Shown here piece by piece: positions 4,862 to 35,493 of a stretch of 60,885 bases of DNA. Positions within the stretch are counted from its first letter, which is position 1. The number at the start of each line of letters is the position of its first letter. Below the pieces are notes generated by a model. The model saw nothing but the letters and a program-made list of their open reading frames with translations. It ran no database searches and was not told the DNA's origin. Origin of the DNA: a virus (lineage: Duplodnaviria > Caudoviricetes); the IMG/VR virus record IMGVR_UViG_3300030419_000057, positions 1 to 60,885 of that record. One strand, given 5' to 3'. The position numbers and the translations under genes were made by a program.

Positions 4862-7800
4862 ATGCCGACTTTAGAAATAGGAGAATTTAAAGGAGTTGAA
4901 TTAGATGATTCTTTCAATTCCTTAACTCCTGACCAACAACAAGAAACTGTAAATAGGATTCACCAGCAATTAAAAGCTGGTAAAACTACTGGTGGTTCTC
5001 TTGATGAAACTGTAACAGAAGAAACTGAGGTACAAGAAACTCAGACCCCTTCTTCTGTAACCCAACCTGTTACCCAACAACCTCAACAGCAAGAACCTCA
5101 AGAACAACCATCATTTACTATGGATGATCTTGATACAGATGAAGAGTGGATACAAGATGCTGCTACTATCTATGAGAATGAAGAGGGAGAAACATGGAAA
5201 GGTTCTAAGGTAGCATTAGCGGAATGGTTAAAGAATAGGCACTCTGAAATTGGATGGGATGTTACAAGTATAGGTTCTTTGGCTTTACGATCTGATGAAT
5301 TTGATGACGATACAAAAGCAGCATGGGTACGTAGTATGGATAAGTACGATAATACTGATGCTGATACTATGTCTTTCTTTAGAGCCTTAAAAAATTTAGG
5401 ACAAGACCCTACTACATGGGTTAGTCTTATAGGTACAGCAGGTATTGGTACGATTGGAAAAATGTTTGGAGGTAAGGCTGCTGGTATAGCTGCTAAATTT
5501 CAAATGAAAGAACAGTTAAAGAAAGCCTTAGTAAAGAGAGGTCTGACTGAGGAAGCAGCTAAAGAAGTAGCAGAAAAAGGAGCAACAAAAGGACTAGCAA
5601 AAGAAACTTTAGCAGGTGCTCGTAAGGAAGCTGCAATAAAATTAGGGAAAACTCAAGGTGTTACTGGTGCTATAGGTACAGGTATTTATAGTGGGGCTGA
5701 TGACTTAGCTAGACAGAAAGCAGATATTAATTTAGATAGAAGTGAAGATGAAGAGATAAATGCTACTCAATTTGTACTTGCTTCTGGTTTAGGGGGAGCA
5801 TTAGGTTTCGTAGGTGGTAGGTATATTCCTACACTAACAGAAAAATTAGGGCGTAAGAGAGCTTTAATGAAACAAGAAGCTCTTGATCAGGCTTATGCTG
5901 CTATGCCTGTGCAAGTTAGAGAAACTTCTGCTGTTTTAGAGACAATGGCTCCAGAAAGTAAAGCTCCTAGTCTAGCTGCTAAAGCTCAGACAGAGTTAGA
6001 AGTAGGAGGAACTATAGATATAGATGCTGCTGGTTCACGAGTAGCTACTAAAGCAGAACGAGAAGCAGTAAAAATTCCTAAAAAACCTACAGAAGAGAAA
6101 TGGGCTGAAATGTCTCTTGCCCGACAAAATGCATGGAATCAACGTAGAAAAATAGCAGAAGAAAAAAGAAATAATTTATCAGATGAAGAACTTATAGAAA
6201 ACTTTAGGGCATCAGATATTGAATTAAAAAGAACTGGTCCTTCTAGTTTCAGAGGAACTAAAATTATTGATAGTACATTTGATGTAGCTAAAACACCTGA
6301 AGGTAGAACCCTTGGTCAAAAACTTTTAGCTAAAGTTAAGAGGGGATTCTTTGATGATGCTGGTTTAGGAGATAAATTTAAACAATTACGTAGTAGATTA
6401 GATACTGCTCCTGCTGTTATGGAACGTAATATTATGCAACAATTTAATAAATTACAAAATGCTTTAGATAAAGAGTACACAGGAGGAGTGTCAGAAGTAA
6501 GTACAGACTTTTATAAAGTAATGGACGATGCATTTAGAGGGGATACTAATGCTATAAATGCAGTTCGCTCTGAAGCTGGTGAAGAAACTGTTGAAGCACT
6601 ACAAGGAATGAGAAATCAAATTCAATATATTCAAAAACAATTATTAGATAGTGGTGCTATTGAAAAAGAATCAGACTTATTTTTAAAAATACAAAAGTCT
6701 ATGGATGATACAGGTAAACCTGATCTATATGTGACCAGACAGTTTGAAGTATTTGATAATCCTAATTGGAGTGAGAAATTTAATGCCAATCCTAATTCTT
6801 TAAAAATTAAAGAAGTAATAGGACAGTATTTTCAAAATCAATTACGACAGAGATATAGAGACTATGATGAAGTTTACAGACAGATTGAGGACAGGGGGGA
6901 AGAATCTTTAAATAATGCCCAACGTCAACTACTACGAGATTTTGAAGACCCTGATACAGGAGAAATTTCTAATAGAATTACTAGATTATTAACTTTAAAT
7001 AACGAAGAAGATATAACTAATGTTTTTAGCCAGTGGGGTAAAATAGGTGGTAGAAATCCTACTAAAATTTTAACTCAACGACAGGATATTCCTGATGAAA
7101 TAAAATTATTAATGGGAGAATATAAGAATCCATTTACTAACTATGCTAATAGTGCAATGAAATTGTTTCAAACTTTAGAAACATATAACTATGAAAAAGA
7201 ATTAGCTAAGTTAATAGATGATGGGGAGATTGTAGGGGCAGGAAGAAGAGTAGCAGGAGATCGTAATGTAGCTTTACAAAGCCGTATACCTGATGTAAAG
7301 GGAGTACAAGGACCACTTGATCCTATTAAAGCAGACTCTCCATTTAAGCAGCCATTAGAGGATTTGTTTGCTACATCTGAGGTAGCCTCTGCTATTAAAC
7401 AAGGTAATGAAATAGCTCCCATACAGTTTAAACCCTTACAACAATATCTATTGTTACAAGGTCATACTCGTGCAGCTAAAACTGTATGGAGTCCAACAGC
7501 TATTGCTCGTAACTTCTTAGGTGCTGGCTGGATGTCTATGGGGGCAGGTTACTTTAGACCTGGAGCTATTAAAGGTATGACCGAAGTAGCTAGAGGATTA
7601 GCAAGTATGTCTGATGGAGAACTTCAAGATCAGATTGAAAAGGGAATAGCTTTGGGATATATACAAAGTGGTACAGATTTAGGAGCATTTAGAGGAGCTT
7701 TACGAGATGCTGGAGATGAAGCCTTTTGGGAATTTAATTCTCCTTTGTATAAAAATAAAAATGCTATTGTAGACAAAGCTAAAAGACTGAATACTAAGGC

Positions 7801-12299: not shown

Positions 12300-12706
12300 C
12301 TACTCTTTCTCATGTTCTCTCTGGCTACACCCTTGAACTTTTCTGCTGACCTAGCAGCACCTAGTCCTAGTAATGATAGAGTAAGGGTCATTAACCCTTC
12401 AGTAGGTATAACAGGAATAACTATGTCTGCACCTGATACAGCTATAGCCCATACGAATACAGGTTGGAATACAAACTGCCATCCTAATCCAAATGCACAT
12501 ATCCACATGATAGCTGGCCTACTTCCACTAACAAAGATAGAAGGATGCTTTGCCTGTTCTATATTAGCCTGTGCTTGAGCAAGGTCAAGGCTAACCATCT
12601 GTTGTTTAAGTTCTGCATTAAGTTTAGTCTTTAAGTCTTTATCTTCTACAAACTTATCTAAAACTTTTCCTGCTACCCCTACAATACTATCTGCTAATCC
12701 TAACAT
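12296..12706 (-). CDS. Holin (GTA 3TM holin-like)
   Basis: LDKFVEDKD, ANIEQAKH.SIFVSGSRPAIMW, LLGLGAARSAEKFKG. Confidence 0.75.
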   Translation of the reverse strand: MLGLADSIVGVAGKVLDKFVEDKDLKTKLNAELKQQMVSLDLAQAQANIEQAKHPSIFVSGSRPAIMWICAFGLGWQFVFQPVFVWAIAVSGADIVIPVIPTEGLMTLTLSLLGLGAARSAEKFKGVARENMRKSR

Positions 12707-14982
12707 GGTAGAAACTCCTTATAATGTTTAGTCTTACTCATACGTGAATTATTCCACAAAGTTTTTACAAGTGTGTTCTCTCCATGAACAGTGATCTCCA
12801 TATCTACATCATCACGTTCAAAGAGTTTTTCACAGTCCTGTGCCATAGCAAGTAACTCACCTGTAGTCCAGAACTTATGATCATCTACGGTCACATTCAT
12901 ATACTTAGGTCTGCCATCTCTCTCTTTCTTTTTCTTCTCTTTGTCTGATGGCTCTGGTATAATACAGTCATAACCAAACAAGTCAAAGGTTCTAAATCCT
13001 AGTATATGCATCATCCCTATAGCTCTCATAGCTGCACACGTTCCTCCTGTAATGAAGGTAGTATCAGGTGGTATATCAAACTCTTCAGAAACTTGTATTG
13101 TATTATCTCTTACAGGTCTATTCTTATCTGTAGATGCACGTAAAGTTTCTGAAAAGGCGTGCCATCCCCACAGATTAGCTCCCTGTTTTTTGAGCAGCCT
13201 TGTTACTGAGGGGTTAGTCATAGATGCTAAAAAGAATATAGTATTCTTATCTACCTTATTAAACAAACTCTTACGAATAATTCCATGCGTAGACTTACCG
13301 CTTAGTGGTCTTGGGTCTAGTATAACACATCCCCACGGTTGTATGCCATGTTTTAAAAGATGGGGGTATGAATGTTTAACACAGACTACACGAGTATTAT
13401 CTTTACGGCTTAGTTCTTTTACATGGCTCCAGTCTGTACTGGCTCCTCCTGATACGATAATTACTCTATCCGAATGTGCTCTACCCTTTTCTAACCAATT
13501 GTCCATAAGTTTAATATTCTTTTTAATATTACTTACAAGGTTCTGATCAGGTACACAGTCTTTAGGAGTGACATGAATAGGAACTTGCATAACCTTATTA
13601 GTTAAGTCTGGAATATCAGGATCATTAAGTATTACTGCGAGGTGAGTAAACCCTCCCTCACGTACCCCATCACTGGATGGTAGTACATACTTACGATTGG
13701 TTGTCTGTTCAATAATTCTATTTACTTCTTGGAACTCTGGTTCTACACAGTTACCATCCTTATCAGCCGTAAAGAAATCATCAAAGACCAATACAGGAAT
13801 ATGTTTAAGTTTACCATAATCATTCTGAACTGTAGCTGTACTATGTCCACCGTCAATGTAAGCTAGGTCTGCATTTATATCATTCTCTAATGTTTGGTTA
13901 GTATCTCCTTTTATTAATTCAAAAGTAAAAGTTTTATTCCTTTCTTTCATCTTAGCTTTGAACTCATTAAGATGTTTAGTAATATCTTTTACTGATACAA
14001 TCTTTTTAGCGTTAAGTTCTTTAGCACTAAGTTCTTCATTACCATCTTCAAATAGATCATGTCCTATATAATGAAAGTCATCTCTATTTTCAAAGGAAGC
14101 AAGAGCCATTTCAATAGCACGTTGTCCTATCCATGTACCTGTTTCTACTACCCTAGCTGGCTGGTACTGACGTATAATGTCTGCTAATTGTTTATACCGT
14201 TGTGCTGGAGGAATAGGTTTACCTTGTACTTTTTCTTTACGATCTCCTTTAAGATGTTCCATAAATTCACTTAGAGGAAAGGACTCAAAGGCTTGCTTAC
14301 CTTTTACAAGGTCTGTTATATCTAAGTGACCAGTGAAGTCTTGTACTCTCATACCATGAGCACGATAGATAGTTAGTAGTCTTTCAAAGACAAACCCATC
14401 ATGCCACTCACGATAGTTGACTACCTCACCAGAGTTGTAGGCTCCACGTAAATCACCTAGTAAATCTAAGGCTCCACGATATTTAAGATTAAATGCCATG
14501 AAGGATGTTTCACTGTAGTCAAAATGTTTTCTTCCTAAGAAAGCTAACTCTGCTTTAGGATTAAGAAATTTATCTAAGTCTTTGGAAGTAAAGTCTTTCT
14601 TAGTAAACGTATCTGCATCTAACCAGATACACCAGCCTGGATCACGGCTGTCATCAGCTAATTCAAATGCAAATTCTGTTAAAGCAAAAACTTTATGACA
14701 AAACTTTATAGCATCTAGTCTAAAGTTATACTGTAATTGTCCACCTTCTGTACCATTATGTTTTTTAAATGTTTCTCTAAAGGCAGTCATCTCTGTAAGA
14801 AGATTAAGATTACGATATTCTATATGAGGAGGACGAGGAACATCATGCTTATCTATATCAAAGTCATGGTAGTATACAGTCAACTTGAGTGGCTCTTTCC
14901 AGTGTCGTGCAGCAGTCTCAAGCATCTTCATACCATAAAGTTTTAGACCCTCTTCATTCATAGAGGTTATAAAGTTATACAT
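12700..14982 (-). CDS. Three-domain protein: GT-A glycosyltransferase-like, class I SAM methyltransferase, MptE/DUF115(Maf)-like
   Basis: KFCHKVFA..WLDAD (DxD); VVETGT, YIDGGHS, VFDD; IVSGGAS, ILDPR, LGFRTFDLFGYD. Confidence 0.65.
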   Translation of the reverse strand: MYNFITSMNEEGLKLYGMKMLETAARHWKEPLKLTVYYHDFDIDKHDVPRPPHIEYRNLNLLTEMTAFRETFKKHNGTEGGQLQYNFRLDAIKFCHKVFALTEFAFELADDSRDPGWCIWLDADTFTKKDFTSKDLDKFLNPKAELAFLGRKHFDYSETSFMAFNLKYRGALDLLGDLRGAYNSGEVVNYREWHDGFVFERLLTIYRAHGMRVQDFTGHLDITDLVKGKQAFESFPLSEFMEHLKGDRKEKVQGKPIPPAQRYKQLADIIRQYQPARVVETGTWIGQRAIEMALASFENRDDFHYIGHDLFEDGNEELSAKELNAKKIVSVKDITKHLNEFKAKMKERNKTFTFELIKGDTNQTLENDINADLAYIDGGHSTATVQNDYGKLKHIPVLVFDDFFTADKDGNCVEPEFQEVNRIIEQTTNRKYVLPSSDGVREGGFTHLAVILNDPDIPDLTNKVMQVPIHVTPKDCVPDQNLVSNIKKNIKLMDNWLEKGRAHSDRVIIVSGGASTDWSHVKELSRKDNTRVVCVKHSYPHLLKHGIQPWGCVILDPRPLSGKSTHGIIRKSLFNKVDKNTIFFLASMTNPSVTRLLKKQGANLWGWHAFSETLRASTDKNRPVRDNTIQVSEEFDIPPDTTFITGGTCAAMRAIGMMHILGFRTFDLFGYDCIIPEPSDKEKKKKERDGRPKYMNVTVDDHKFWTTGELLAMAQDCEKLFERDDVDMEITVHGENTLVKTLWNNSRMSKTKHYKEFLPC

Positions 14983-28014: not shown

Positions 28015-28188
28015 CTAATCTCCAAATATAATATTAAAACCTTTGTTAGCAATAAATTCTAAAGCACTATGCTCTGTCTCATCAGCATTGATAGCTGACC
28101 AAGGCTGAAAGTCTGGGTCAATCCAACCCAAACTCTCAGCATCTTCTATGGTTTTACCATAAGATTTATACAGATATTCTTTCTGCAT
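28015..28188 (-). CDS. 57-aa hypothetical protein (not in ORF track)
   Basis: MQKEYLYKSYGKTIEDAESLGWIDPDF...; fills the gap with a coupled start. Confidence 0.55.
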   Translation of the reverse strand: MQKEYLYKSYGKTIEDAESLGWIDPDFQPWSAINADETEHSALEFIANKGFNIIFGD

Positions 28189-28358
28189 TACTCATCTCCA
28201 GTGTCTAGAACTTCATATAAATAATCTTCACACTGTTCAATTATACGAGCAAGCTCTTTATGTCCATGATTTGCAGCATCATCATACATTTCTTTGAATG
28301 TACCTAAAGTTTTTAATGCCCACTCTCTTTCTTTTATTGCAGCCTCATATAAATTCAT
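28188..28358 (-). CDS. 56-aa hypothetical protein (not in ORF track)
   Basis: MNLYEAAIKEREWALK...; ATGA overlap with upstream stop and GGAG SD. Confidence 0.55.
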   Translation of the reverse strand: MNLYEAAIKEREWALKTLGTFKEMYDDAANHGHKELARIIEQCEDYLYEVLDTGDE

Positions 28359-29881: not shown

Positions 29882-30103
29882 TTAATTCCTTCTCTTTTTA
29901 AGATAATCAGATATAGCACAATGCACATCTATTTCTAGTTCATCTTCTCGTAACCATTCCTCTGCACGATTCTGATACAGAGCATGAGCGATAGCTTGCT
30001 CAATAAATTCTTCTATGTTATTATCTATATAATCATAGATCGTACTAACAGCTTCATCATACATATCTTCCAGTTGAGATTGGACTGGTGATGGTAACGA
30101 CAT
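29882..30103 (-). CDS. Hypothetical acidic early protein
   Basis: AAGGAG SD directly after hairpin copy 3. Confidence 0.65.
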   Translation of the reverse strand: MSLPSPVQSQLEDMYDEAVSTIYDYIDNNIEEFIEQAIAHALYQNRAEEWLREDELEIDVHCAISDYLKKRRN

Positions 30104-30119
30104 ATCATTCTCCTTATCT

Positions 30120-30165
30120 TATATCTCTAAGGTATTTCACTACGTTCAATACCGTAAGAGATATA
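30120..30165 (-). repeat. Dispersed hairpin element, copy 3
   Basis: UAUAUCUCU-UAC-GGUAUU...AAUACC-UU-AGAGAUAUA; loop shares ACGUAGUG with copy 1. Confidence 0.8.
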
Positions 30166-30252
30166 TAGGTTTACCAAACAATACTCCCACATAGTAATAA
30201 TGTAAAGAGTAAACTAAACAATAATATATTATTGTACATTACTAACCCTTTT

Positions 30253-31378: not shown

Positions 31379-31990
31379 TTAATATTTCTTGACTTTTTCT
31401 ACAATCGTATCCGTAGTGCTATGATTATAACATAGTAAACAGTCTTTGCACTTTTGTCCAGTACAATTTTGTTGATCTACATGCTCATGCTCCAAGACAT
31501 TATTAAATGTCTTATCAAAGTATAGTGGTGGAGTAGCCATGATGCTACTAATAGTAGGGTTGCTATAGATTACAATCAAGTTCTTTGGCTTTTCAACATA
31601 GTCAAAAAGTCTTTTAATATAATCTTTACGCTTTGTCCACAAAGCAAAGTTACAATGCGGATTATGCTTAACGATAGCTACAAGGTTAGCTAAATGTTGC
31701 ATATTAATTAGCTCACCATGAGCATCAAACCTAAAGAAAGCATCCAGTATTACTGGCAATTCTTCTTTGCTCAAAGTCTTGGAACTTAGAAGATCACTGT
31801 TACGCTGCAAAGCAGCAGCCATATTCTTTCTATATCCTTTAAGCATGGTATGGCTGTAACAATGCTTGCAAATTGTTTCCTTCTTTGCTTTGTTCATCTT
31901 GATGCAAAAAGGATTAGTCAAAGTATTAGTGCTAATAGCTTTAAAACCGTCCAGCTTACCAGTCATTTTACTAATGTGAACATTAGTCAT
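31379..31990 (-). CDS. Cys-rich gp88-like / radical-SAM-related protein
   Basis: SKMTGK, C..CKHCY, FRFDAHGEL, ALWTKR, PKNL, C-terminal C...CKDCLLC. Confidence 0.55.
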   Translation of the reverse strand: MTNVHISKMTGKLDGFKAISTNTLTNPFCIKMNKAKKETICKHCYSHTMLKGYRKNMAAALQRNSDLLSSKTLSKEELPVILDAFFRFDAHGELINMQHLANLVAIVKHNPHCNFALWTKRKDYIKRLFDYVEKPKNLIVIYSNPTISSIMATPPLYFDKTFNNVLEHEHVDQQNCTGQKCKDCLLCYNHSTTDTIVEKVKKY

Positions 31991-32223
31991 TATATAAACT
32001 CCACTTTAAAATCTGCATCACCTTTACGGTGAATCCAACGTGTCCATTTAGTATCAACAGACTGTATTAAAATCATATCTTCTCCCAGAAACTTATAAGT
32101 TTCATTCATTAGATGATCTTCTGCATACAGTGGGCCAGATACTCCATCCCATAATTCTCCATGAGAATTAATACGTCTTTTACCATACTCAGTAAGCCCT
32201 GTCAAACGTACCATGTTAGCCAT
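31990..32223 (-). CDS. Hypothetical protein, paralog of 32338-32544
   Basis: VRLTGLTEYGKRRINSHGELW...RWIH..GDADFKVE. Confidence 0.65.
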   Translation of the reverse strand: MANMVRLTGLTEYGKRRINSHGELWDGVSGPLYAEDHLMNETYKFLGEDMILIQSVDTKWTRWIHRKGDADFKVEFI

Positions 32224-32240
32224 ATTAAAACTCCTTATAA

Positions 32241-32302
32241 ATATCTCTAGAAACTCTAAGTAGTATCATAAATGCTACTACTAAGAGTTTCATAAGAGAT
32301 AT
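32241..32302 (-). repeat. Dispersed hairpin element, copy 4 (extended)
   Basis: Plus strand ATATCTCT-a-GAAACTCT-a-AGTAGTA...TACTACT-a-AGAGTTTC-ata-AGAGATAT. Confidence 0.8.
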
Positions 32303-32303
32303 A

Positions 32304-32348
32304 TTACTTCTCCGAACCAAACGTGTTGATCCATTCTTCAGGTGTTAC
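32304..32348 (-). pseudogene. Relic duplicate of the 3' end of gene 32546-32746
   Basis: Encodes VTPEEWINTFGSEK* versus VTPQEWINTFGSEK*; 38/45 nt identical. Confidence 0.85.
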
Positions 32349-32544
32349 TTTTATTATTAATCTCCACTTCAAAGTCTCTATCAAATAGAGGATCAACCCA
32401 ACGTGCATCCCAAGTTAGGGTTGACCTAACAAATAATTTTTGGGGTTGTAACTCAGAAGCATGATCTATTACTTCCCACTTGTTTCCATTCTCTTTCACT
32501 CTATTCTTACCGTGATTAGTTTTACCTGTTAGTGTAACAAACAT
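32338..32544 (-). CDS. Hypothetical protein (start MFVTLTG), paralog of 31990-32223
   Basis: GGAG SD; VTLTGKTNHGKNRVKENGNKW...RWVD..FDRDFEVE. Confidence 0.65.
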   Translation of the reverse strand: MFVTLTGKTNHGKNRVKENGNKWEVIDHASELQPQKLFVRSTLTWDARWVDPLFDRDFEVEINNKSNT

Positions 32545-32545
32545 T

Positions 32546-32746
32546 TTATTTCTCCGATCCAAAAGTATTAATCCATTCTTGAGGTGTAACACCTGTCTTT
32601 AAAAATTCTCTGTCATTAGCAGAGACATTAGGCATAGCATCTTGAATAAGAGTACCACTTTCCCAATCGTCAATCTGTGATTGAGTAACAGGAATATCCA
32701 TTGTATTCCACTCGCCACTAAACATACTTTTCTTTGTAATAAGCAT
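32546..32746 (-). CDS. Conserved small phage protein
   Basis: ITKKSMFSG..NTMDIPVT...LIQDAMPNVS..DREFLKTGVTPQEW. Confidence 0.7.
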   Translation of the reverse strand: MLITKKSMFSGEWNTMDIPVTQSQIDDWESGTLIQDAMPNVSANDREFLKTGVTPQEWINTFGSEK

Positions 32747-32769
32747 AGCTTTTATCCTTTGACAAAGTT

Positions 32770-32955
32770 AAATTGGTTAAGGGGTACACTTCTAAGGCCT
32801 TATCTACAGATAAGGTAAATCTTACATTTCATCGTGACCCCTCTTACGGCTACCAGTACCGACACGTAACAGTGTTAGTCTTTTGTTTGTGAGTGCTACC
32901 TCACTTCTCATCATCGGAGGTTAGTCTCCGACTAGTCCCTGCTACAGGACACGTT
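32770..32955 (-). ncRNA. Structured ncRNA segment with repeated GUAGC-loop hairpins
   Basis: GUCC-UGUAGCAG-GGAC, GUGAG-GUAGCA-CUCAC, UAC-UGGUAGCC-GUA and GUCGGAG-ACUAAC-CUCCGAU. Confidence 0.5.
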
Positions 32956-32964
32956 CAAGAAAAA

Positions 32965-33053
32965 GGTGAGAGGGCAGGGAATTGAACCCTGCGTTAGCCT
33001 ACCCTAATAGACCTACAGTGTTTTAGGGACACTGTAAACCAGCCATGCCTCTC
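32965..33053 (-). ncRNA. tRNA-like RNA (non-canonical: no D-stem, 8-bp arm with CCCUAAA loop, long variable arm)
   Basis: Acceptor GAGAGG/CCUCUC-ACC, T-arm GCAGGG-UUCAAUU-CCCUGC, UACAGUGU/ACACUGUA, GGUCUA/UAGGCU. Confidence 0.7.
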
Positions 33054-33060
33054 GTAAATC

Positions 33061-33105
33061 TTCTTATGTGAAGCAGATACCCCGTTGATATCTGCCCCAT
33101 AAAAA
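33061..33105 (-). repeat. Second hairpin family, copy A (GG/UUCA internal loop)
   Basis: UUUUUAUG-GG-GCAGAUAU...GUAUCUGC-UUCA-CAUAAGAA, just after a stop codon. Confidence 0.65.
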
Positions 33106-33107
33106 GA

Positions 33108-33275
33108 CTATGCAATAGTCACAAGACCTTGCTTGTCTGTTAGACGGCTCATGCTATAGAACGGCATGAACAAGTATAGAGAACGCTTTCCAAAATGAAT
33201 CTGGAAAGATTTAGAACCACGACCAAAACCGTAACGGGTTTTCTTTGAACGCTTCCGATAAATATATTTAACCAT
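33108..33275 (-). CDS. 55-aa basic protein (not in ORF track)
   Basis: AAGGAGG after hairpin copy 5; MVKYIYRKRSKKTRYGFGRGSKSFQIHFGKRSLY... Confidence 0.6.
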   Translation of the reverse strand: MVKYIYRKRSKKTRYGFGRGSKSFQIHFGKRSLYLFMPFYSMSRLTDKQGLVTIA

Positions 33276-33294
33276 GAGCTATCCAGCCCTCCTT

Positions 33295-33361
33295 ATATAA
33301 GAAACTCTAAGTGGTGTTCGTAAGAACTCACACCACTAAGAGTATCTATATTAACAACAAG
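33295..33361 (-). repeat. Dispersed hairpin element, copy 5
   Basis: ACUCU-U-AGUGGU-GUGA-GUUC-UUAC-GAAC-ACCACU-U-AGAGU, then SD. Confidence 0.85.
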
Positions 33362-33822
33362 GTTGTAAAACAACCTACGATTAACAGGATCATCTTGAGA
33401 TCACTGTAAAACTTTTCGTCATCTTGATACATAGCCTTATGCCTTTGCCAAGATCAAAGAATAGATGCCGCCTTTAATTCTTTGCAGTCAGGTCTGCCGT
33501 GCCCTTCGGGAAGCAACGGTCTCTGTCTTCCCTGCACCTCTCACTATGCTTCACCATAGACAAAGTAGGGAGGATACTCTGTCGCTTTTTACGGTGTTAC
33601 AGTTACAACAATATCATTACTCCGTAATGAGTAACACATCAAGAAATAAATAAATCAAAGAGCAGTTTCTGTACGACTTACTCAGGTCGTCTTGACATTC
33701 TACCCACTATATTAGGTCAAGACTAATATAGTTTGTTTTGGACAGTTTTTCATGTTACCATTATCCAGCATAACTTCTGTTGACAGGCGTGGTAAGCCCC
33801 GAATCTTATTCAGAGTCAAGAA
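33362..33822 (-). ncRNA. Large structured non-coding segment (multiple hairpins and three H-type pseudoknots)
   Basis: No credible ORF; successive stems with G-U pairs that work on the minus strand; see findings. Confidence 0.55.
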
Positions 33823-33823
33823 C

Positions 33824-33875
33824 TATGTCCTTGTGTGAAGCAGACAGCCTAAACTGTCTACCCCACAAAGACATA
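33824..33875 (-). repeat. Second hairpin family, copy B (GG/UUCA internal loop)
   Basis: UAUGUCUUUGUG-GG-GUAGACAG...CUGUCUGC-UUCA-CACAAGGACAUA, just after a stop codon. Confidence 0.65.
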
Positions 33876-33879
33876 AGTC

Positions 33880-34095
33880 TTAGGCGGCAGTGGCTTCATC
33901 ACGACCAGCAACGAAAGACGTTGCCATCGTATCAGGCATAGCCTCTGCATTCTTGATGACCTTCCAACTACCGTTGGCATGGACAACCCGAACAGGACGG
34001 CCAGCAGCTTCGGCTTTCTTAGCCGTATCACCTTTGCTTTGGTGTGCAGTCCACTTGCCAGTTTTAACGTCAAACGATTGAAATTTAACAGCCAT
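33880..34095 (-). CDS. Hypothetical early protein
   Basis: AAAGGAGG SD after hairpin copy 6; Ala/Lys-rich, more GC-rich than flanking genes. Confidence 0.7.
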   Translation of the reverse strand: MAVKFQSFDVKTGKWTAHQSKGDTAKKAEAAGRPVRVVHANGSWKVIKNAEAMPDTMATSFVAGRDEATAA

Positions 34096-34111
34096 AATCG
34101 GCCTCCTTTGT

Positions 34112-34166
34112 TATAAGATAGTCTAAGTGATGTTCGCAAGAACTCACATCACTAAGACAATCTATA
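34112..34166 (-). repeat. Dispersed hairpin element, copy 6
   Basis: GUCU-U-AGUGAU-GUGA-GUUC-UUGC-GAAC-AUCACU-U-AGAC. Confidence 0.85.
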
Positions 34167-34263
34167 TGGTTTGGAAAAACGTCATTAGTCCAGCGTATGC
34201 CATGCTGAATAGCATAGGCCAGACTATGACAAACTTTGCAAAGATACAAAGATCAGAGATCAT
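34162..34263 (-). CDS. 33-aa hydrophobic peptide (not in ORF track)
   Basis: MISDLCIFAKFVIVWPMLFSMAYAGLMTFFQTI*; overlaps upstream stop; no clear SD. Confidence 0.35.
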   Translation of the reverse strand: MISDLCIFAKFVIVWPMLFSMAYAGLMTFFQTI

Positions 34264-34417
34264 ATGCATAGACAAATTCTATAGCTGAATCAAAAGATTC
34301 AAGCCAATGACCGTGAAGGCCATCCCATACATCAACAGATGTATCAGTTACAGATACTTGGTAAGACCAAGTACCATACTTCATGTCTAAAGCGTTTTGT
34401 AAATCAAATTCAGTCAT
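34253..34417 (-). CDS. 54-aa hypothetical protein (not in ORF track)
   Basis: AAGGAG SD; MTEFDLQNALDMKYGTWSY...; TAATG coupling. Confidence 0.6.
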   Translation of the reverse strand: MTEFDLQNALDMKYGTWSYQVSVTDTSVDVWDGLHGHWLESFDSAIEFVYAYDL

Positions 34418-34581
34418 TAGACTGCTCCTTTGTCTATGTTAGCTTGCAATCTATCTGCAAGAAGTTTGAACTGTTCTTCCTTTTGGAAGAAACCACACAT
34501 CGTTAAATGATCCTGCAAAGAATTAGCAGGATGATTCTGTAATTCAACAAGGTTGAATTTGTCAAGCATTGTTTTCAGCAT
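34417..34581 (-). CDS. Hypothetical protein (start corrected to MLKTMLDK)
   Basis: AAAGGA SD before 34581; the longer track start lies inside hairpin copy 7. Confidence 0.6.
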   Translation of the reverse strand: MLKTMLDKFNLVELQNHPANSLQDHLTMCGFFQKEEQFKLLADRLQANIDKGAV

Positions 34582-34601
34582 GGCATCCTTTGCTATGTAA
34601 A

Positions 34602-34646
34602 GGTTACTAAGTGTAGTTCGTAAGAACTTCACTACACTAAGTAACC
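34602..34646 (-). repeat. Dispersed hairpin element, copy 7
   Basis: GGUUACU-U-AGUGUA-GUGAA-GUUC-UUAC-GAAC-UACACU-U-AGUAACC. Confidence 0.85.
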
Positions 34647-34660
34647 CTAAGTGTCAAGTT

Positions 34661-34903
34661 TTAAATGTCTTTGCCATATTCTGATATGGCATTGTCCAAC
34701 AACTCAGTAAGTTTATGCTGAAGCATATCACGATTAACTTGCTTACCGTAGGTAAACCGACCAATCTTAATAACTTCAAGCAAAGCCTCTTGAACTTCTT
34801 CAAGATAGTGCTCATAGTTTTCACAATGGCAAGCTTCCAGCTTGGTCATTTCATACCCAGCTTTAGCTGTAACTTTCATACCAGAACCAATCCAGCAATC
34901 CAT
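34661..34903 (-). CDS. Hypothetical protein, first early gene
   Basis: AAGGAG SD directly after hairpin copy 8. Confidence 0.6.
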   Translation of the reverse strand: MDCWIGSGMKVTAKAGYEMTKLEACHCENYEHYLEEVQEALLEVIKIGRFTYGKQVNRDMLQHKLTELLDNAISEYGKDI

Positions 34904-34917
34904 ATCAATCTCCTTAA

Positions 34918-34961
34918 ATATCTCTAAGGTATTTCATTTCATTCAATACCGTAAGAGATAT
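34918..34961 (-). repeat. Dispersed hairpin element, copy 8 (near-identical to copy 3)
   Basis: Plus strand ATATCTCTAAGGTATT...AATACCGTAAGAGATAT shared with 30121-30164. Confidence 0.85.
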
Positions 34962-35177
34962 ATAGGTTTCATCACAACATCTCATCATCAACCTTGTTGA
35001 TGCACTGTCATCTCATCAAATCCGTTGCCGAAAGGCTCTGTCTTGATCTATGACTTTTGTCAAAGATGTCAACTACTTAGTAGGACTAAGTAGGTCTGGT
35101 GACTGGCTGAAAGTGTTGCCACTACAGCCAAGCTCTATGAGCTTACCAGACTTCATCAGCCTAACTCCAAAGAATCT

Positions 35178-35250
35178 CTCTGTATCTCAAGAGACTCTAA
35201 CTTACTTCCTAAGAAGTCAGTAAGTAAGAGTCTCTAAAGAGATACTAGAG
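35178..35250. repeat. Long nested hairpin related to the dispersed element (copy 9)
   Basis: GTATCTC..GAGACTCT-aa-CTTACT...AGTAAG-ta-AGAGTCTC..GAGATAC. Confidence 0.6.
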
Positions 35251-35442
35251 AAATCATAGACTTTGCCTCGCTATGCATAGACGGGGGGGCGCAAAAACGC
35301 CTAGGCACATATATATATAAACAGGGGGTGACATATATAGACCAAATAATGAGGGGTTCATCGTATTAACTTTTAAATCCGTAATAACAAGATATAAAAA
35401 TAGGGATAATAGATATACTATTACCCCCCTGACTACATAGAC

Positions 35443-35471
35443 AGTATAGCACATATTTTTCTACTTGGCAA
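35443..35471 (-). promoter_or_regulatory. Leftward sigma70-type promoter (early arm)
   Basis: TTGCCA-17 nt-TATACT with extended TG. Confidence 0.65.
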
Positions 35472-35493
35472 CTATTAAAAAGTATGTTATTAT
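35465..35493 (+). promoter_or_regulatory. Rightward sigma70-type promoter (terL/structural arm)
   Basis: TTGGCA-17 nt-TATTAT with extended TG. Confidence 0.65.

What the first reader, a model, noticed from the sequence alone, without database searches (positions are those of the whole stretch)
32770..33880. 1.1-kb cluster of structured non-coding RNA modules in the early region
Seen: apart from one 55-aa ORF this stretch has no credible gene in an otherwise densely packed genome. On the minus (transcribed) strand it is tiled by stems: a GG/UUCA hairpin, a three-way junction (about 33776-33822), three pseudoknots (33660-33774), further hairpins (33362-33637), a dispersed-family hairpin, a second GG/UUCA hairpin, a tRNA-like fold and GUAGC-loop hairpins. 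Several stems contain G-U pairs that would be A-C mismatches on the plus strand, which points to RNA-level selection on the minus strand. Inference: a processed polycistronic ncRNA locus expressed at the start of infection, possibly decoys against host anti-phage RNases or translation-level host takeover. This is my best candidate for an undescribed system.
Basis: partly seen in the sequence, partly recalled or inferred. Interest (0 to 1): 0.88.

Follow-up and report, generated by a model that had tools for sequence, protein, structure and literature searches.

The report
Structured RNA modules in phage early operon
A marine phage packs the start of its early operon with conserved RNA hairpins and an anticodon-less tRNA look-alike placed between two tiny real genes, which most likely cut up and stabilise the early messenger RNA rather than forming one large non-coding RNA gene.

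Summary
The window is a complete 60.9-kb uncultured marine phage, distantly related to HTVC023P-type pelagiphages.

**Confirmed on the minus (transcribed) strand, with covariation in relatives:**
- Two copies of a 20-24-bp hairpin just after stop codons ("D9").
- One of three copies of a pre-RBS hairpin with an invariant GUGAGU-UCUU-ACGAAC tip ("D1").
- A tRNA-like element with no D-stem.
- GUAGCA-loop hairpins.
- Hairpins at 33552-33596, 33508-33532 and 33706-33732.

**Not confirmed:** the three-way junction and the three pseudoknots. The stretch 33600-33825 folds no better than 12 of 200 shuffles.

- The stretch holds two real genes: the 55-aa basic protein, with relatives in many contigs, and a conserved 28-aa hydrophobic ORF.
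- Dense structure is a property of the whole first ~3 kb of the early operon, not of this 1.1 kb alone.
- The pieces are shuffling modules. A close relative lacks 32774-33054 entirely, and others carry a different tRNA-like element in that slot.
- The "CUA anticodon" is incidental.

**Best reading (confidence 0.5):** cis-acting processing and stability signals. The D9 hairpins look like RNase III sites and the tRNA-like element like an RNase P punctuation site. A trans role such as a decoy remains open.

None of the elements reaches an Rfam threshold, and none was found in cultured phage records.

The parts
33824..33875 (-). D9a: long hairpin that starts right after the stop codon of the 71-aa gene. 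It has a 12-bp lower stem, a GGG/CUUCA internal loop that G-U pairs can close, and an 8-bp upper stem.
   Evidence: Alignment A3 and pair counts. Folding energy is -33.0 kcal/mol with z -6.8 on the minus strand, against -19.9 on the plus strand.
33706..33732 (-). 10-bp hairpin (ACUAUAUUAG / CUAAUAUAGU) inside a 172-nt module (33654-33825) that is shared at 92% identity with L047/L049.
   Evidence: two pairs change on both sides and stay paired (my reading of A8). The stem is also present in the centroid fold.
33597..33823 (-). Apart from the hairpin above, it shows no significant structure. It contains a 35-aa TTG ORF (33712-33819) of doubtful status.
   Evidence: Fold z -1.57, with 12 of 200 shuffles as good. 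One metagenome contig joins 33614 to 33821 and skips this stretch. The ORF is kept in L047 with 4 non-synonymous changes, 4 synonymous changes and a stop-to-stop change (my count).
33552..33596 (-). Conserved bipartite hairpin: 7 outer pairs (CACCGUA / UAUGGUG, one of them G-U) closing GACAGAGUA / UACUUUGUC.
   Evidence: In one search, 16 pairs are kept in L003 and 3 one-sided changes all pass through G-U. It is also present in L043 (93% identity) and L047 (83%). Fold z is only -1.9.
33508..33532 (-). Hairpin GGGAAG / CUUCCC with a conserved AGAGACCG loop.
   Evidence: My reading of alignment A6: L003 has GGCAA / UUGCC, which makes two pairs changed on both sides. RNAalifold did not call this stem.
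33346..33432 (-). 28-aa ORF (MYQDDEKFYSDLKMILLIVGCFTTLLLI), probably a small membrane peptide.
   Evidence: It is conserved in L003, L002 and L043. Against L003, 5 of 8 nucleotide changes are synonymous and 5 of 8 fall at third codon positions. The relatives have a GGAG RBS.
33300..33347 (-). D1b: pre-RBS hairpin with a covarying lower stem, a U-U mismatch, and the invariant tip GUGAGU-UCUU-ACGAAC (two Watson-Crick pairs, tandem G-A, two Watson-Crick pairs, tetraloop). Further copies lie at 34112-34167 and 34596-34651.
   Evidence: Folding energy is -23.8 kcal/mol, z -5.5.
33108..33275 (-). 55-aa basic protein gene (core motif YRKR..RYG..HFGKRSLYL) with an AAGGAGG RBS.
   Evidence: Relatives occur in 14 viral loci and 44 metagenome loci; alignment A7. 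The predicted structure is all-beta with pLDDT 79. There is no Pfam, PHROG or PDB-fold match.
33057..33109 (-). D9b: second copy of the post-stop hairpin. Its first pairs overlap the stop codon of the 55-aa gene.
   Evidence: Folding energy is -25.0 kcal/mol (z -7.7) on the minus strand against -13.4 on the plus strand.
32965..33053 (-). TLE-A, a tRNA-like element. It has a 6-bp acceptor stem, an 11-nt single strand containing GG where the D arm would be, an 8-bp hairpin (loop CCCUAAA), a 7-bp hairpin (loop UAGG), a 6-bp T stem with loop UUCAAUU, and then A-C-C.
   Evidence: ARAGORN calls it 'tRNA-Pyl (cta)'. The Rfam tRNA-Sec model gives 21.2 bits against a gathering score of 47. The fold gives -34.6 kcal/mol, z -2.77. 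A model built from the relatives' element in the same slot finds it at 21.3 bits, E about 0.008.
32847..32950 (-). H-module. It comprises a hairpin with a GUAGCA loop (32935-32950), a UAGUC/GACUA helix enclosing a variable hairpin and a second GUAGCA-loop hairpin (32876-32934), and two small hairpins (32862-32875 and 32847-32861).
   Evidence: The module is conserved in L003 and in L094, where it follows an unrelated gene and has no tRNA-like element. There is one compensatory pair plus several G-U-compatible changes.
32779..32842 (-). Long irregular hairpin closed by AGGGG / CCCCU. The interior differs from L003, including an indel, but both versions are self-complementary.
32774..33054 (-). 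Extent of the accessory block (TLE-A, H-module and long hairpin). The block is absent from the close relative L024 and is bounded by a short ATTTA repeat.
   Evidence: In L024 the D9 hairpin runs straight into the RBS of the 66-aa gene homolog.

Best explanation
The stretch is part of the polycistronic early transcript of a lytic marine phage. It consists of two small protein genes (55 aa and 28 aa) embedded among modular, mostly cis-acting RNA elements.

**(1) D9, the post-stop hairpins.**
- Shown: they are about two helical turns long, have an internal loop and are strand-specific.
- Inferred: they act like the RNase III sites of the T7 early region. A cut in or near the internal loop would separate the cistrons and leave a protective 3' hairpin on the upstream mRNA.

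**(2) D1, the hairpins before ribosome-binding sites.**
- Shown: the tandem G-A tip is invariant, the stem covaries, and every copy lies on the gene strand.
- Inferred: they are binding sites for a protein, phage or host, that sets translation or stability of the following cistron.

**(3) TLE-A, the tRNA-like element.**
- Shown: it copies only the top half of a tRNA. It has a 12-bp acceptor/T-stem stack, a canonical T loop, GG in the D region and a 3' ACC, but no usable anticodon arm.
- Inferred: RNase P cuts at its 5' end, four bases after D9b, and the tRNA 3'-end machinery trims it. It would thus work as punctuation and release a small stable tRNA-like RNA.

**(4) The modules are dispensable and shuffle between related phages.** The repeated hairpins lie at the borders of the exchanged blocks.
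For: **Position and strand.** All elements lie on the transcribed strand, downstream of the predicted early promoter at 35471-35443.

**D9.**
- It starts at or right after a stop codon in all 7 distinct copies.
- 137 of 138 cells are paired, 6 of 20 pairs are compensatory, and 0 of 500 shuffles reach the paired share or covariation score.
- It is 12-13 kcal/mol more stable on the minus strand because of G-U pairs.
- It forms 20-24 pairs with an internal loop or bulge. Passages of PMC1540722 state that E. coli RNase III substrates typically span two helical turns. They also state that internal loops limit cleavage to one strand, which leaves 3' hairpins that protect against exonucleases.
- It has no run of U after it (not among the terminator-like sites).

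**D1.**
- There are 26 distinct copies in the window and its relatives, all on the gene strand, with 13 invariant columns at the tip and three covarying stem pairs.
- An IMG/VR scan for one tip variant found 27 contigs, 24 of them with complementary flanks by eye.

**tRNA-like elements.**
- The same slot (55-aa gene, D9, then the element) holds a related element, TLE-B, in 5 further distinct sequences from 11 loci.
- In TLE-B, 130 of 130 cells are paired, 6 of 26 pairs are compensatory, and 0 of 500 shuffles match.
- The TLE-B model finds the window's element and L003's as the only extra hits in 294 kb (21.3 bits, E about 0.008). It aligns the supposed anticodon arm to a stem that carries a 12-nt loop in TLE-B.
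- L003 has a third variant after its other D9 hairpin (z -4.45).
- The abstract of PMC12710915 (listing) ties bacterial RNase P cleavage to a 3' RCCA motif.

**Modularity.**
- L024 lacks 32774-33054.
- L003 and L002 carry two extra genes where the window has a junction near 33465.
- L094 has the H-module alone.
- A metagenome contig skips 33615-33820.
Against: - No RNA data of any kind were available. Transcription, cleavage sites and stable products are all inferred.
- RNase III and RNase P recognition is argued from shape only, using E. coli rules, and the host is unknown.
- The invariant internal-loop letters of D9 and the invariant tip of D1 suggest sequence-specific protein recognition. 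Generic dsRNA cleavage does not need that.
- D1 folds equally well on either strand, so a DNA-level role is not excluded for it.
- TLE-A has only one close homolog, which differs by a 3-nt indel and one G-C to G-U change, so it has almost no covariation of its own. Its link to TLE-B rests on a weak model score with rough E-values.
- The element is absent from 3 of 10 distinct loci that have the 55-aa gene plus a post-stop hairpin (L024, L051/52, L053). Punctuation there cannot depend on it.
- The H-module, the long hairpin and the hairpins at 33508-33596 have no proposed role.
- About 200 nt (33597-33705 and 33733-33823) show no supported structure.
Confidence: 0.5

Rival explanations
1. Trans-acting tRNA mimic. 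The tRNA-like element, perhaps together with the hairpin module behind it, is made as a stable small RNA. It would titrate or mislead a host factor that recognises the tRNA elbow and acceptor end: a tRNA-targeting defence nuclease or transferase, the CCA-adding enzyme, EF-Tu or a synthetase.
For: - The top half of a tRNA is copied faithfully (T loop, GG, 12-bp stack, ACC) while the bottom half is free to vary.
- It has an early position and an accessory presence/absence pattern, with three structural variants in one clade. Counter-defence genes typically behave this way (general knowledge).
- It is always linked to the basic 55-aa protein gene: 7 of 7 distinct TLE-A/B sequences.
Against: - There is no conserved anticodon-like loop that an anticodon nuclease could take for its target.
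- No expression data and no known partner exist.
- The family is narrow. It was found in 7 distinct sequences only, and in none of 25 further loci searched with the model.
- This reading is compatible with the cis-punctuation reading rather than exclusive of it.
Confidence: 0.2
2. Evolutionary debris. The tRNA-like element is a decaying type-II tRNA gene, and the surrounding stems are remnants and recombination scars of a hyperplastic early region. They would have no function of their own.
For: - The block is dispensable (L024).
- The window carries a deletion junction where relatives have two genes.
- A duplicated gene end lies nearby (32293-32348 against 32535-32590, 80% identity).
- Part of the stretch has no significant fold.
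- ARAGORN and the tRNA-Sec model both see a degraded tRNA.
Against: - Compensatory changes maintain the stems of D9, D1, TLE-B, H-a and the hairpin at 33706-33732.
- The H-module is kept at 88% identity in an unrelated context (L094).
- Three different anticodon-less variants all retain a T loop, an acceptor stem and ACC.
Confidence: 0.12
3. Amber-suppressor tRNA, as ARAGORN labels it. The element would read UAG codons for the phage.
For: - ARAGORN calls 'tRNA-Pyl, anticodon cta' in the window and in L003.
- It has a 7-nt loop CCCUAAA, a canonical T arm and A73-CC.
Against: - There is no D stem.
- Position 33 of the loop is C, not U.
- The anticodon stem would be 8 bp.
- It scores 21.2 bits against a gathering score of 47.
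- The homologous stem in TLE-B carries a 12-nt loop.
- Under table 11 the genome has intact ORFs of up to 1544 aa, so no recoding is needed.
Confidence: 0.03
4. DNA-level elements. The hairpins would be recombination hot spots, replication or packaging signals, or an attP site derived from a host tRNA gene.
For: - Repeated hairpins lie at the borders of exchanged blocks. This resembles the PeSL cassettes of T4-type phages (abstract of PMC4122927; listing of PMC2839356).
- D1 folds equally well on both strands.
Against: - D9 and the hairpin at 33552-33596 rely on G-U pairs that exist only on the transcribed strand.
- All D1 copies share the orientation of the genes.
- The exact T-arm/acceptor sequence occurs in none of the 185,579 species genomes scanned.
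- No integrase was seen among the 19 larger proteins scanned.
- A role in recombination can coexist with an RNA role.
Confidence: 0.1

Closest known systems
RNase III processing sites of the bacteriophage T7 early region (R0.3-R1.3; R1.1 is the model substrate)
   Same: - Hairpins of about two helical turns with an internal loop, placed between the cistrons of an early polycistronic mRNA.
- The expected result is separated mRNAs with protective 3' hairpins. The substrate rules come from passages of PMC1540722. The T7 gene layout is recalled.
   Different: - There is no sequence likeness.
- D9 has invariant loop letters (GGG / CUUCA) and always abuts a stop codon.
- Cleavage is untested and the host enzyme is unknown.
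PeSL cassettes (promoter-early stem-loops) of T4-type phages
   Same: Short repeated stem-loop cassettes between small early ORFs in hyperplastic regions, lying at the borders of insertions, deletions and replacements (abstract of PMC4122927).
   Different: - PeSLs are terminator-plus-sigma-70-promoter composites.
- D1 and D9 have no U tract.
- They have no promoter-like site beyond chance: 17 sites found against 16.7 expected in the region.
- D1 has an invariant RNA-style tandem G-A tip.
tRNA-like 't-elements' of plant mitochondrial mRNAs, and RNase P-processed phage RNAs (P1/P7 C4 RNA, T4 stable RNAs C and D; the phage examples are recalled)
   Same: Acceptor/T-arm mimics within longer transcripts that provide RNase P and RNase Z cut sites and so define mRNA ends (abstract of PMC1920247, seen in the listing).
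   Different: - The setting here is a double-stranded DNA phage early operon.
- The element keeps a cloverleaf-like set of three hairpins, in three interchangeable variants.
- Cleavage is not shown.
Canonical and phage-encoded tRNAs, including type-II and tRNA-Sec
   Same: The T loop UUCAAUU, a 12-bp acceptor/T stack, GG in the D region, a long extra arm and A73-CC.
   Different: - There is no D stem and no U33, and the anticodon stem would be 8 bp.
- It falls below every Rfam tRNA threshold.
- Its relatives have a 12-nt loop at that position.
3' tRNA-like structures (TLS) of plant RNA viruses; tmRNA tRNA-like domain
   Same: Mimicry of the tRNA top half without decoding.
   Different: - TLSs sit at genome 3' ends and use pseudoknotted acceptor stems.
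- tmRNA carries a reading frame.
- Neither matched in Rfam searches run at E up to 10.

Membership tests
tRNA (canonical, Rfam clan CL00001) | Covariance-model score at or above the gathering score | tested here: not met
   The best clan hit is tRNA-Sec at 21.2 bits against 47. There is no hit at gathering score anywhere in the window.
tRNA (canonical, Rfam clan CL00001) | Cloverleaf with a D stem-loop and a 5-bp anticodon stem carrying a 7-nt loop with U33 | tested here: not met
   The MFE fold has 11 unpaired nt in place of the D arm, and an 8-bp stem whose loop CCCUAAA has C at position 33.
tRNA (canonical, Rfam clan CL00001) | T arm with a UUCRANY loop, and an acceptor plus T stack of 12 bp | tested here: met
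   A 6-bp acceptor stem plus a 6-bp T stem, with loop UUCAAUU.
Suppressor tRNA in a recoded phage | In-frame UAG codons in phage genes that need read-through | tested here: not met
   Long intact ORFs under table 11, including ones of 1479 and 1544 aa.
RNase III processing site (T7 R1.1 type) | Double helix of about two turns | tested here: met
   20 consensus pairs. The two window copies have 24 and 22 pairs in their MFE folds.
RNase III processing site (T7 R1.1 type) | Internal loop or bulge at the cleavage site, giving a single-strand cut | tested here: inconclusive
   The conserved 3 x 5 internal loop (GGG / CUUCA) is there. However, the MFE closes most of it with G-U pairs.
RNase III processing site (T7 R1.1 type) | Cleavage by RNase III | not testable with these tools
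   This needs an enzyme assay or end mapping.
Intrinsic terminator | G+C-rich hairpin followed by a run of U | tested here: not met
   D9 and D1 are not among the 13 terminator-like sites. The tails read UAGUUCUUGAC and UUUACGAG.
PeSL (T4-type promoter-early stem-loop) | Stem-loop immediately followed by a sigma-70 early promoter | tested here: not met
   There is no room between D1 and the RBS. The only nearby site (33369-33341, 9 of 12 matches) is at chance level: 17 found against 16.7 expected.
PeSL (T4-type promoter-early stem-loop) | Repeats lie at the borders of indels between close relatives | tested here: met
   The blocks bounded by D9a, D1b and D9b differ among the window, L003, L002, L004, L024 and L047.
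RNase P substrate (tRNA-like / t-element) | Acceptor/T-stem stack with a T loop and a 3' RCC(A) | tested here: met
   ACC follows the acceptor stem in 6 of 7 distinct TLE-A/B sequences; L050 has CCG.
RNase P substrate (tRNA-like / t-element) | Cleavage at position +1 | not testable with these tools
   This needs an assay or 5'-end mapping.
attP site derived from a host tRNA gene | Identity to the 3' part of a bacterial tRNA gene, plus an integrase | tested here: not met
   The pattern has 0 matches in genome contigs. No integrase domain was found in the 19 proteins scanned. Not every ORF was scanned.

The most novel reading that the evidence does not exclude
These phages carry a previously undescribed class of anticodon-less tRNA mimics. 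They come in three interchangeable architectures, TLE-A, TLE-B and TLE-C, and are always placed behind a post-stop hairpin. Types A and B always sit behind the gene of a conserved 55-aa basic all-beta protein. The mimic would be released by tRNA-processing enzymes, completed to CCA and perhaps charged. It would then act in trans, possibly as a ribonucleoprotein with the basic protein, to block or divert a host factor that reads the tRNA elbow or acceptor end, for example a tRNA-directed anti-phage defence. The D1 hairpin with its invariant tandem G-A tip would be the recognition site of a second, equally unknown early regulator. [quoted passage not shown]
Probability: 0.18. Interest if true: 0.8.

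Novelty: new variant of a known kind. Interest (0 to 1): 0.55.

Why it matters
**Relevance of the phage group.** The phage is a distant relative of the HTVC023P-type pelagiphages. [quoted passage not shown] Nothing is known about how these phages organise early gene expression.

**What this work defines.** It identifies three concrete RNA motifs, each with coordinates, a consensus and covariation:
- a post-stop hairpin;
- a pre-RBS hairpin with an invariant tandem G-A tip, spread over dozens of contigs;
- a family of anticodon-less tRNA mimics.

None of them reaches an Rfam threshold.

**Why that is useful.**
- The motifs give testable handles on mRNA processing in hosts such as SAR11 that are hard to work with.
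- They show that modular shuffling at repeated hairpins, known from T4-type phages, also shapes this group.
- If the tRNA mimic acts in trans, it would add a new kind of phage tRNA mimicry.

Tried and rejected
**Rfam.** No family reaches gathering score in the window or in 7 relatives. At E up to 10, only chance-level miRNA/snoRNA hits and the weak tRNA-Sec hit appear.

**Cultured phages.**
- blastn of the region, of D1b and of D9+TLE-B against 50,697 phage records gave no match.
- The one exception was a 25-nt chance match in an Aeromonas phage.

**Exact-pattern scans.**
- Two patterns from TLE-A found only the L003 contig in viral contigs.
- A TLE-B 16-mer found 14 contigs. The model recognises none of the 13 new ones as a tRNA-like element.

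**attP idea.** 0 matches in genome contigs.

**Expression.** No RNA holder was listed. The four runs laid were DNA contigs only and showed variants and one skipping joint, nothing on RNA.

**55-aa protein.** No Pfam or PHROG family. The AlphaFold model (pLDDT 79, six strands) has no PDB match at E <= 0.001, best E 1.3. No RNA-binding fold could therefore be claimed.

**Promoter reading of D1.** The consensus scan is at chance level.

**Closed or unavailable sources.**
- The catalogue of about 8,500 candidate structured RNAs from IMG/VR (PMC10690425, passages seen) lists its motifs only in supplements that I could not open. It may already include D1, D9 or the tRNA-like elements, so 'not described' rests on Rfam and on searches only.

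**Weak points in my own work.**
- The automatic stem counter was wrong for the extra-A variant, so the '24 of 27' figure is my reading of the printed flanks.
- The pattern covered only the GUGAA tip variant, not the commoner GUGA one, so its count is a lower bound.
- I did not build models for D1 or D9, and I ran no R-scape-type statistics.


Full report
**Context.** The window is a whole IMG/VR virus record of 60,885 bp, rated 100% complete.
- Its large terminase is 38-42% identical to those of Pelagibacter phages HTVC023P and HTVC027P.
- It encodes a family-A DNA polymerase, a primase-helicase, a ribonucleotide reductase and ThyX.
- Genes run leftwards from about 35454 to 11510 and rightwards elsewhere.
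- A pair of divergent sigma-70-like sites lies at 35443-35493.
- The finding therefore lies 1.6-2.7 kb into the leftward, presumably early, transcription unit, and the minus strand is the sense strand.

**Is the stretch gene-poor?** Yes, but less so than stated.
- The 55-aa ORF is a real gene. It has an AAGGAGG ribosome-binding site. Relatives occur in 14 viral loci and 44 metagenome loci, with a conserved core YRKR..RYG..HFGKRSLYL.
- A 28-aa hydrophobic ORF (33346-33432) is also conserved in L003, L002 and L043. Against L003, 5 of its 8 nucleotide changes are synonymous, and the relatives have a GGAG site.
- A 35-aa TTG ORF (33712-33819) is kept in L047. It shows 4 non-synonymous changes, 4 synonymous changes and a stop-to-stop change, and its Shine-Dalgarno-like bases lie inside a hairpin. 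I leave it undecided.

**Is it more structured than chance?** I scanned 468 windows of 120 nt on the sense strand.
- The finding's region has mean z -1.98 (n=8, p 0.027).
- The signal belongs to the whole first 3 kb: 32200-35400 has mean z -2.59, with 40% of windows below -3. Elsewhere the mean is -0.58, with 5% below -3 (p 2e-6).
- The roughly 530-nt leader upstream (34905-35440) is at least as structured.

**Post-stop hairpin (D9).**
- Two copies, 33824-33875 and 33057-33109, begin at or right after the stop codons of the 71-aa and 55-aa genes.
- In seven distinct copies from the window and its relatives, 137 of 138 cells are paired and 6 of 20 pairs change on both sides.
- No shuffle of 500 reaches the observed paired share or covariation score; 29 of 500 reach the number of compensatory pairs.
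- Sliding the 3' partners drops pairing to 41-56%.
- Several pairs are G-U. Accordingly the minus strand folds 12-13 kcal/mol better than the plus strand.
- The helix spans about two turns and has a conserved GGG/CUUCA internal loop. No U tract follows it.
[quoted passage not shown] They state that internal loops restrict cleavage to one strand and leave a protective 3' hairpin.
- I therefore read D9 as an RNase III-type processing and stability site, by analogy with the T7 early region. This is inference.

**Pre-RBS hairpin (D1).**
- The copy at 33300-33347 is one of three in the window; the others are at 34112-34167 and 34596-34651.
- I found 26 distinct copies in the window and the fetched loci. 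All lie on the gene strand, and most lie 15-50 nt before a ribosome-binding site.
- Thirteen columns at the tip are invariant.
- RNAalifold pairs the tip as G-C, U-A, tandem G-A/A-G, G-C, U-A around a UCUU loop. The three stem pairs below it each have 8 or 9 of 26 copies changed on both sides with the pair kept. A U-U mismatch recurs in the lower stem.
- A scan of IMG/VR for one tip variant found 27 contigs, two of them already known. In 24 of them the flanks are complementary, with quite different sequences, and one contig pair has five copies in 2.3 kb.
- The motif is not in Rfam and was not found in cultured phage records.
- An invariant tip on a covarying stem suggests a protein-binding RNA site. 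What binds it is unknown.

**The tRNA-like element.**
- ARAGORN labels 32968-33064 'tRNA-Pyl (cta)'.
- The fold of 32962-33056 gives a 6-bp acceptor stem, 11 unpaired bases containing GG, an 8-bp hairpin with loop CCCUAAA, a 7-bp hairpin with a tetraloop, a 6-bp T stem with loop UUCAAUU, and then A-C-C (-34.6 kcal/mol, z -2.77).
- It scores 21.2 bits with the tRNA-Sec model against a gathering score of 47.

**Related elements in the same slot.**
- In relatives, the same slot (55-aa gene, D9, then the element) holds a longer element, TLE-B. It occurs in five distinct sequences from 11 loci.
- For TLE-B, 130 of 130 cells are paired, 6 of 26 pairs are compensatory and 0 of 500 shuffles match.
- A covariance model of TLE-B finds the window's element and L003's as its only other hits in 294 kb (21.3 bits, E about 0.008, rough calibration). 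It aligns the supposed anticodon arm with a stem that carries a 12-nt loop in TLE-B.
- The model finds nothing in 248 kb of further loci.
- L003 has a third variant behind its other D9 hairpin (z -4.45).

**What the element is and is not.**
- The CUA 'anticodon' is incidental.
- What is conserved is the tRNA top half: the acceptor/T stack, the T loop and a 3' ACC.
- That top half is the part read by RNase P, the 3'-end enzymes and the CCA-adding enzyme.
- Hence the proposal that it punctuates the transcript, as t-elements do in plant mitochondria (abstract of PMC1920247).
- A trans role remains possible.
- An attP origin is unlikely: there are 0 matches in 185,579 species genomes, and no integrase among the proteins scanned.

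**Other hairpins.**
- Downstream of the tRNA-like element, 32847-32950 holds a hairpin with a GUAGCA loop, a small three-way domain containing a second GUAGCA loop, and two short hairpins.
- These are kept in L003 and, at 88% identity, in L094. In L094 the module follows an unrelated gene without any tRNA-like element.
- A long hairpin closed by AGGGG/CCCCU follows at 32779-32842.
- Upstream, 33552-33596 and 33508-33532 are conserved hairpins with G-U-compatible or compensatory changes. The hairpin at 33706-33732 has two compensatory pairs against L047.

**Modularity.**
- The close relative L024 (94% identical across the 66-aa gene) joins D9b directly to that gene's ribosome-binding site. It lacks 32774-33054, whose ends carry a short ATTTA repeat.
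- L003 and L002 have two extra genes where the window has a junction near 33465.
- A metagenome contig skips 33615-33820.
- The blocks between D9a, D1b and D9b differ in nearly every relative.
- This is the behaviour described for PeSL cassettes in T4-type phages (abstract of PMC4122927). However, D1 and D9 lack the promoter and terminator that define a PeSL.

**Verdict.**
- The interpretation as one processed ncRNA locus is too strong.
- The best-supported reading is a set of modular, mostly cis-acting RNA signals on an early polycistronic mRNA, together with a new small family of anticodon-less tRNA mimics.
- Every functional step is inferred. No RNA data were available.

Noticed in passing
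window 34905-35471 (minus strand): The predicted early promoter (TTGCCA-17-TATACT, 35471-35443) is followed at once by a terminator-like hairpin with a U run (35428-35402). After that comes about 500 nt with very strong predicted structure (z -4 to -6). It includes a long hairpin at about 35190-35250 whose counterpart in relatives carries the D1 tip. The listed 66-aa ORF 35254-35454 overlaps the promoter and may not be a gene.
   Followed up: partly
window 30121-30172 and 34918-34969: A second repeated hairpin family ('D2', 94% identical copies). Each copy ends just before the ribosome-binding site of a small gene (29882-30103 and 34661-34903). The lower stem resembles that of D1 (CUCUUA..UUAGAG), but the tip is different.
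   Followed up: no
window 32293-32348 vs 32535-32590: An 80% direct repeat. The 3' end of the 66-aa gene (…EWINTFGSEK) and the start of the next gene are duplicated 242 nt downstream. This looks like a remnant of a gene duplication or of a recombination event.
   Followed up: no
window 32338-32592, 31990-32223; L003 about 6640-6850: A family of small paralogous early proteins (…TGKTNHGKNRV…W…DRNFEVE…). It has two members in the window and further members inserted at different places in relatives.
   Followed up: no
L003 6372-6457: A third tRNA-like variant (TLE-C). It has a 10-bp acceptor-like helix, two hairpins, the T arm GUAGG-UUCAAAU-CCUAC, and then ACC. It lies behind the first D9 hairpin of that phage. 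ARAGORN does not call it.
   Followed up: partly
L043 2413-2550: Between D9b and TLE-B, this relative has an extra domain of about 130 nt, closed by a 13-bp stem (ACUGUAGUAUGUA / UACAUACUACAGU). It is another structured module of unknown role.
   Followed up: no
window 28030-28356 (minus strand): A stretch without a listed ORF of 60 aa or more. It folds far better than shuffles (z -5.3) and includes a 16-bp hairpin. It may also hold small ORFs.
   Followed up: partly
window 12700-14982 (minus strand): A 760-aa protein that combines a methyltransferase domain with an MptE-like (6-hydroxymethylpterin diphosphokinase-like) domain.
   Followed up: no
L028 4708-4793; L031 6530-6615: More distant relatives, found through the 66-aa protein, carry a regular tRNA-Tyr (GUA) gene a few kb downstream. 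Bona fide tRNA genes therefore do occur in this wider group.
   Followed up: no
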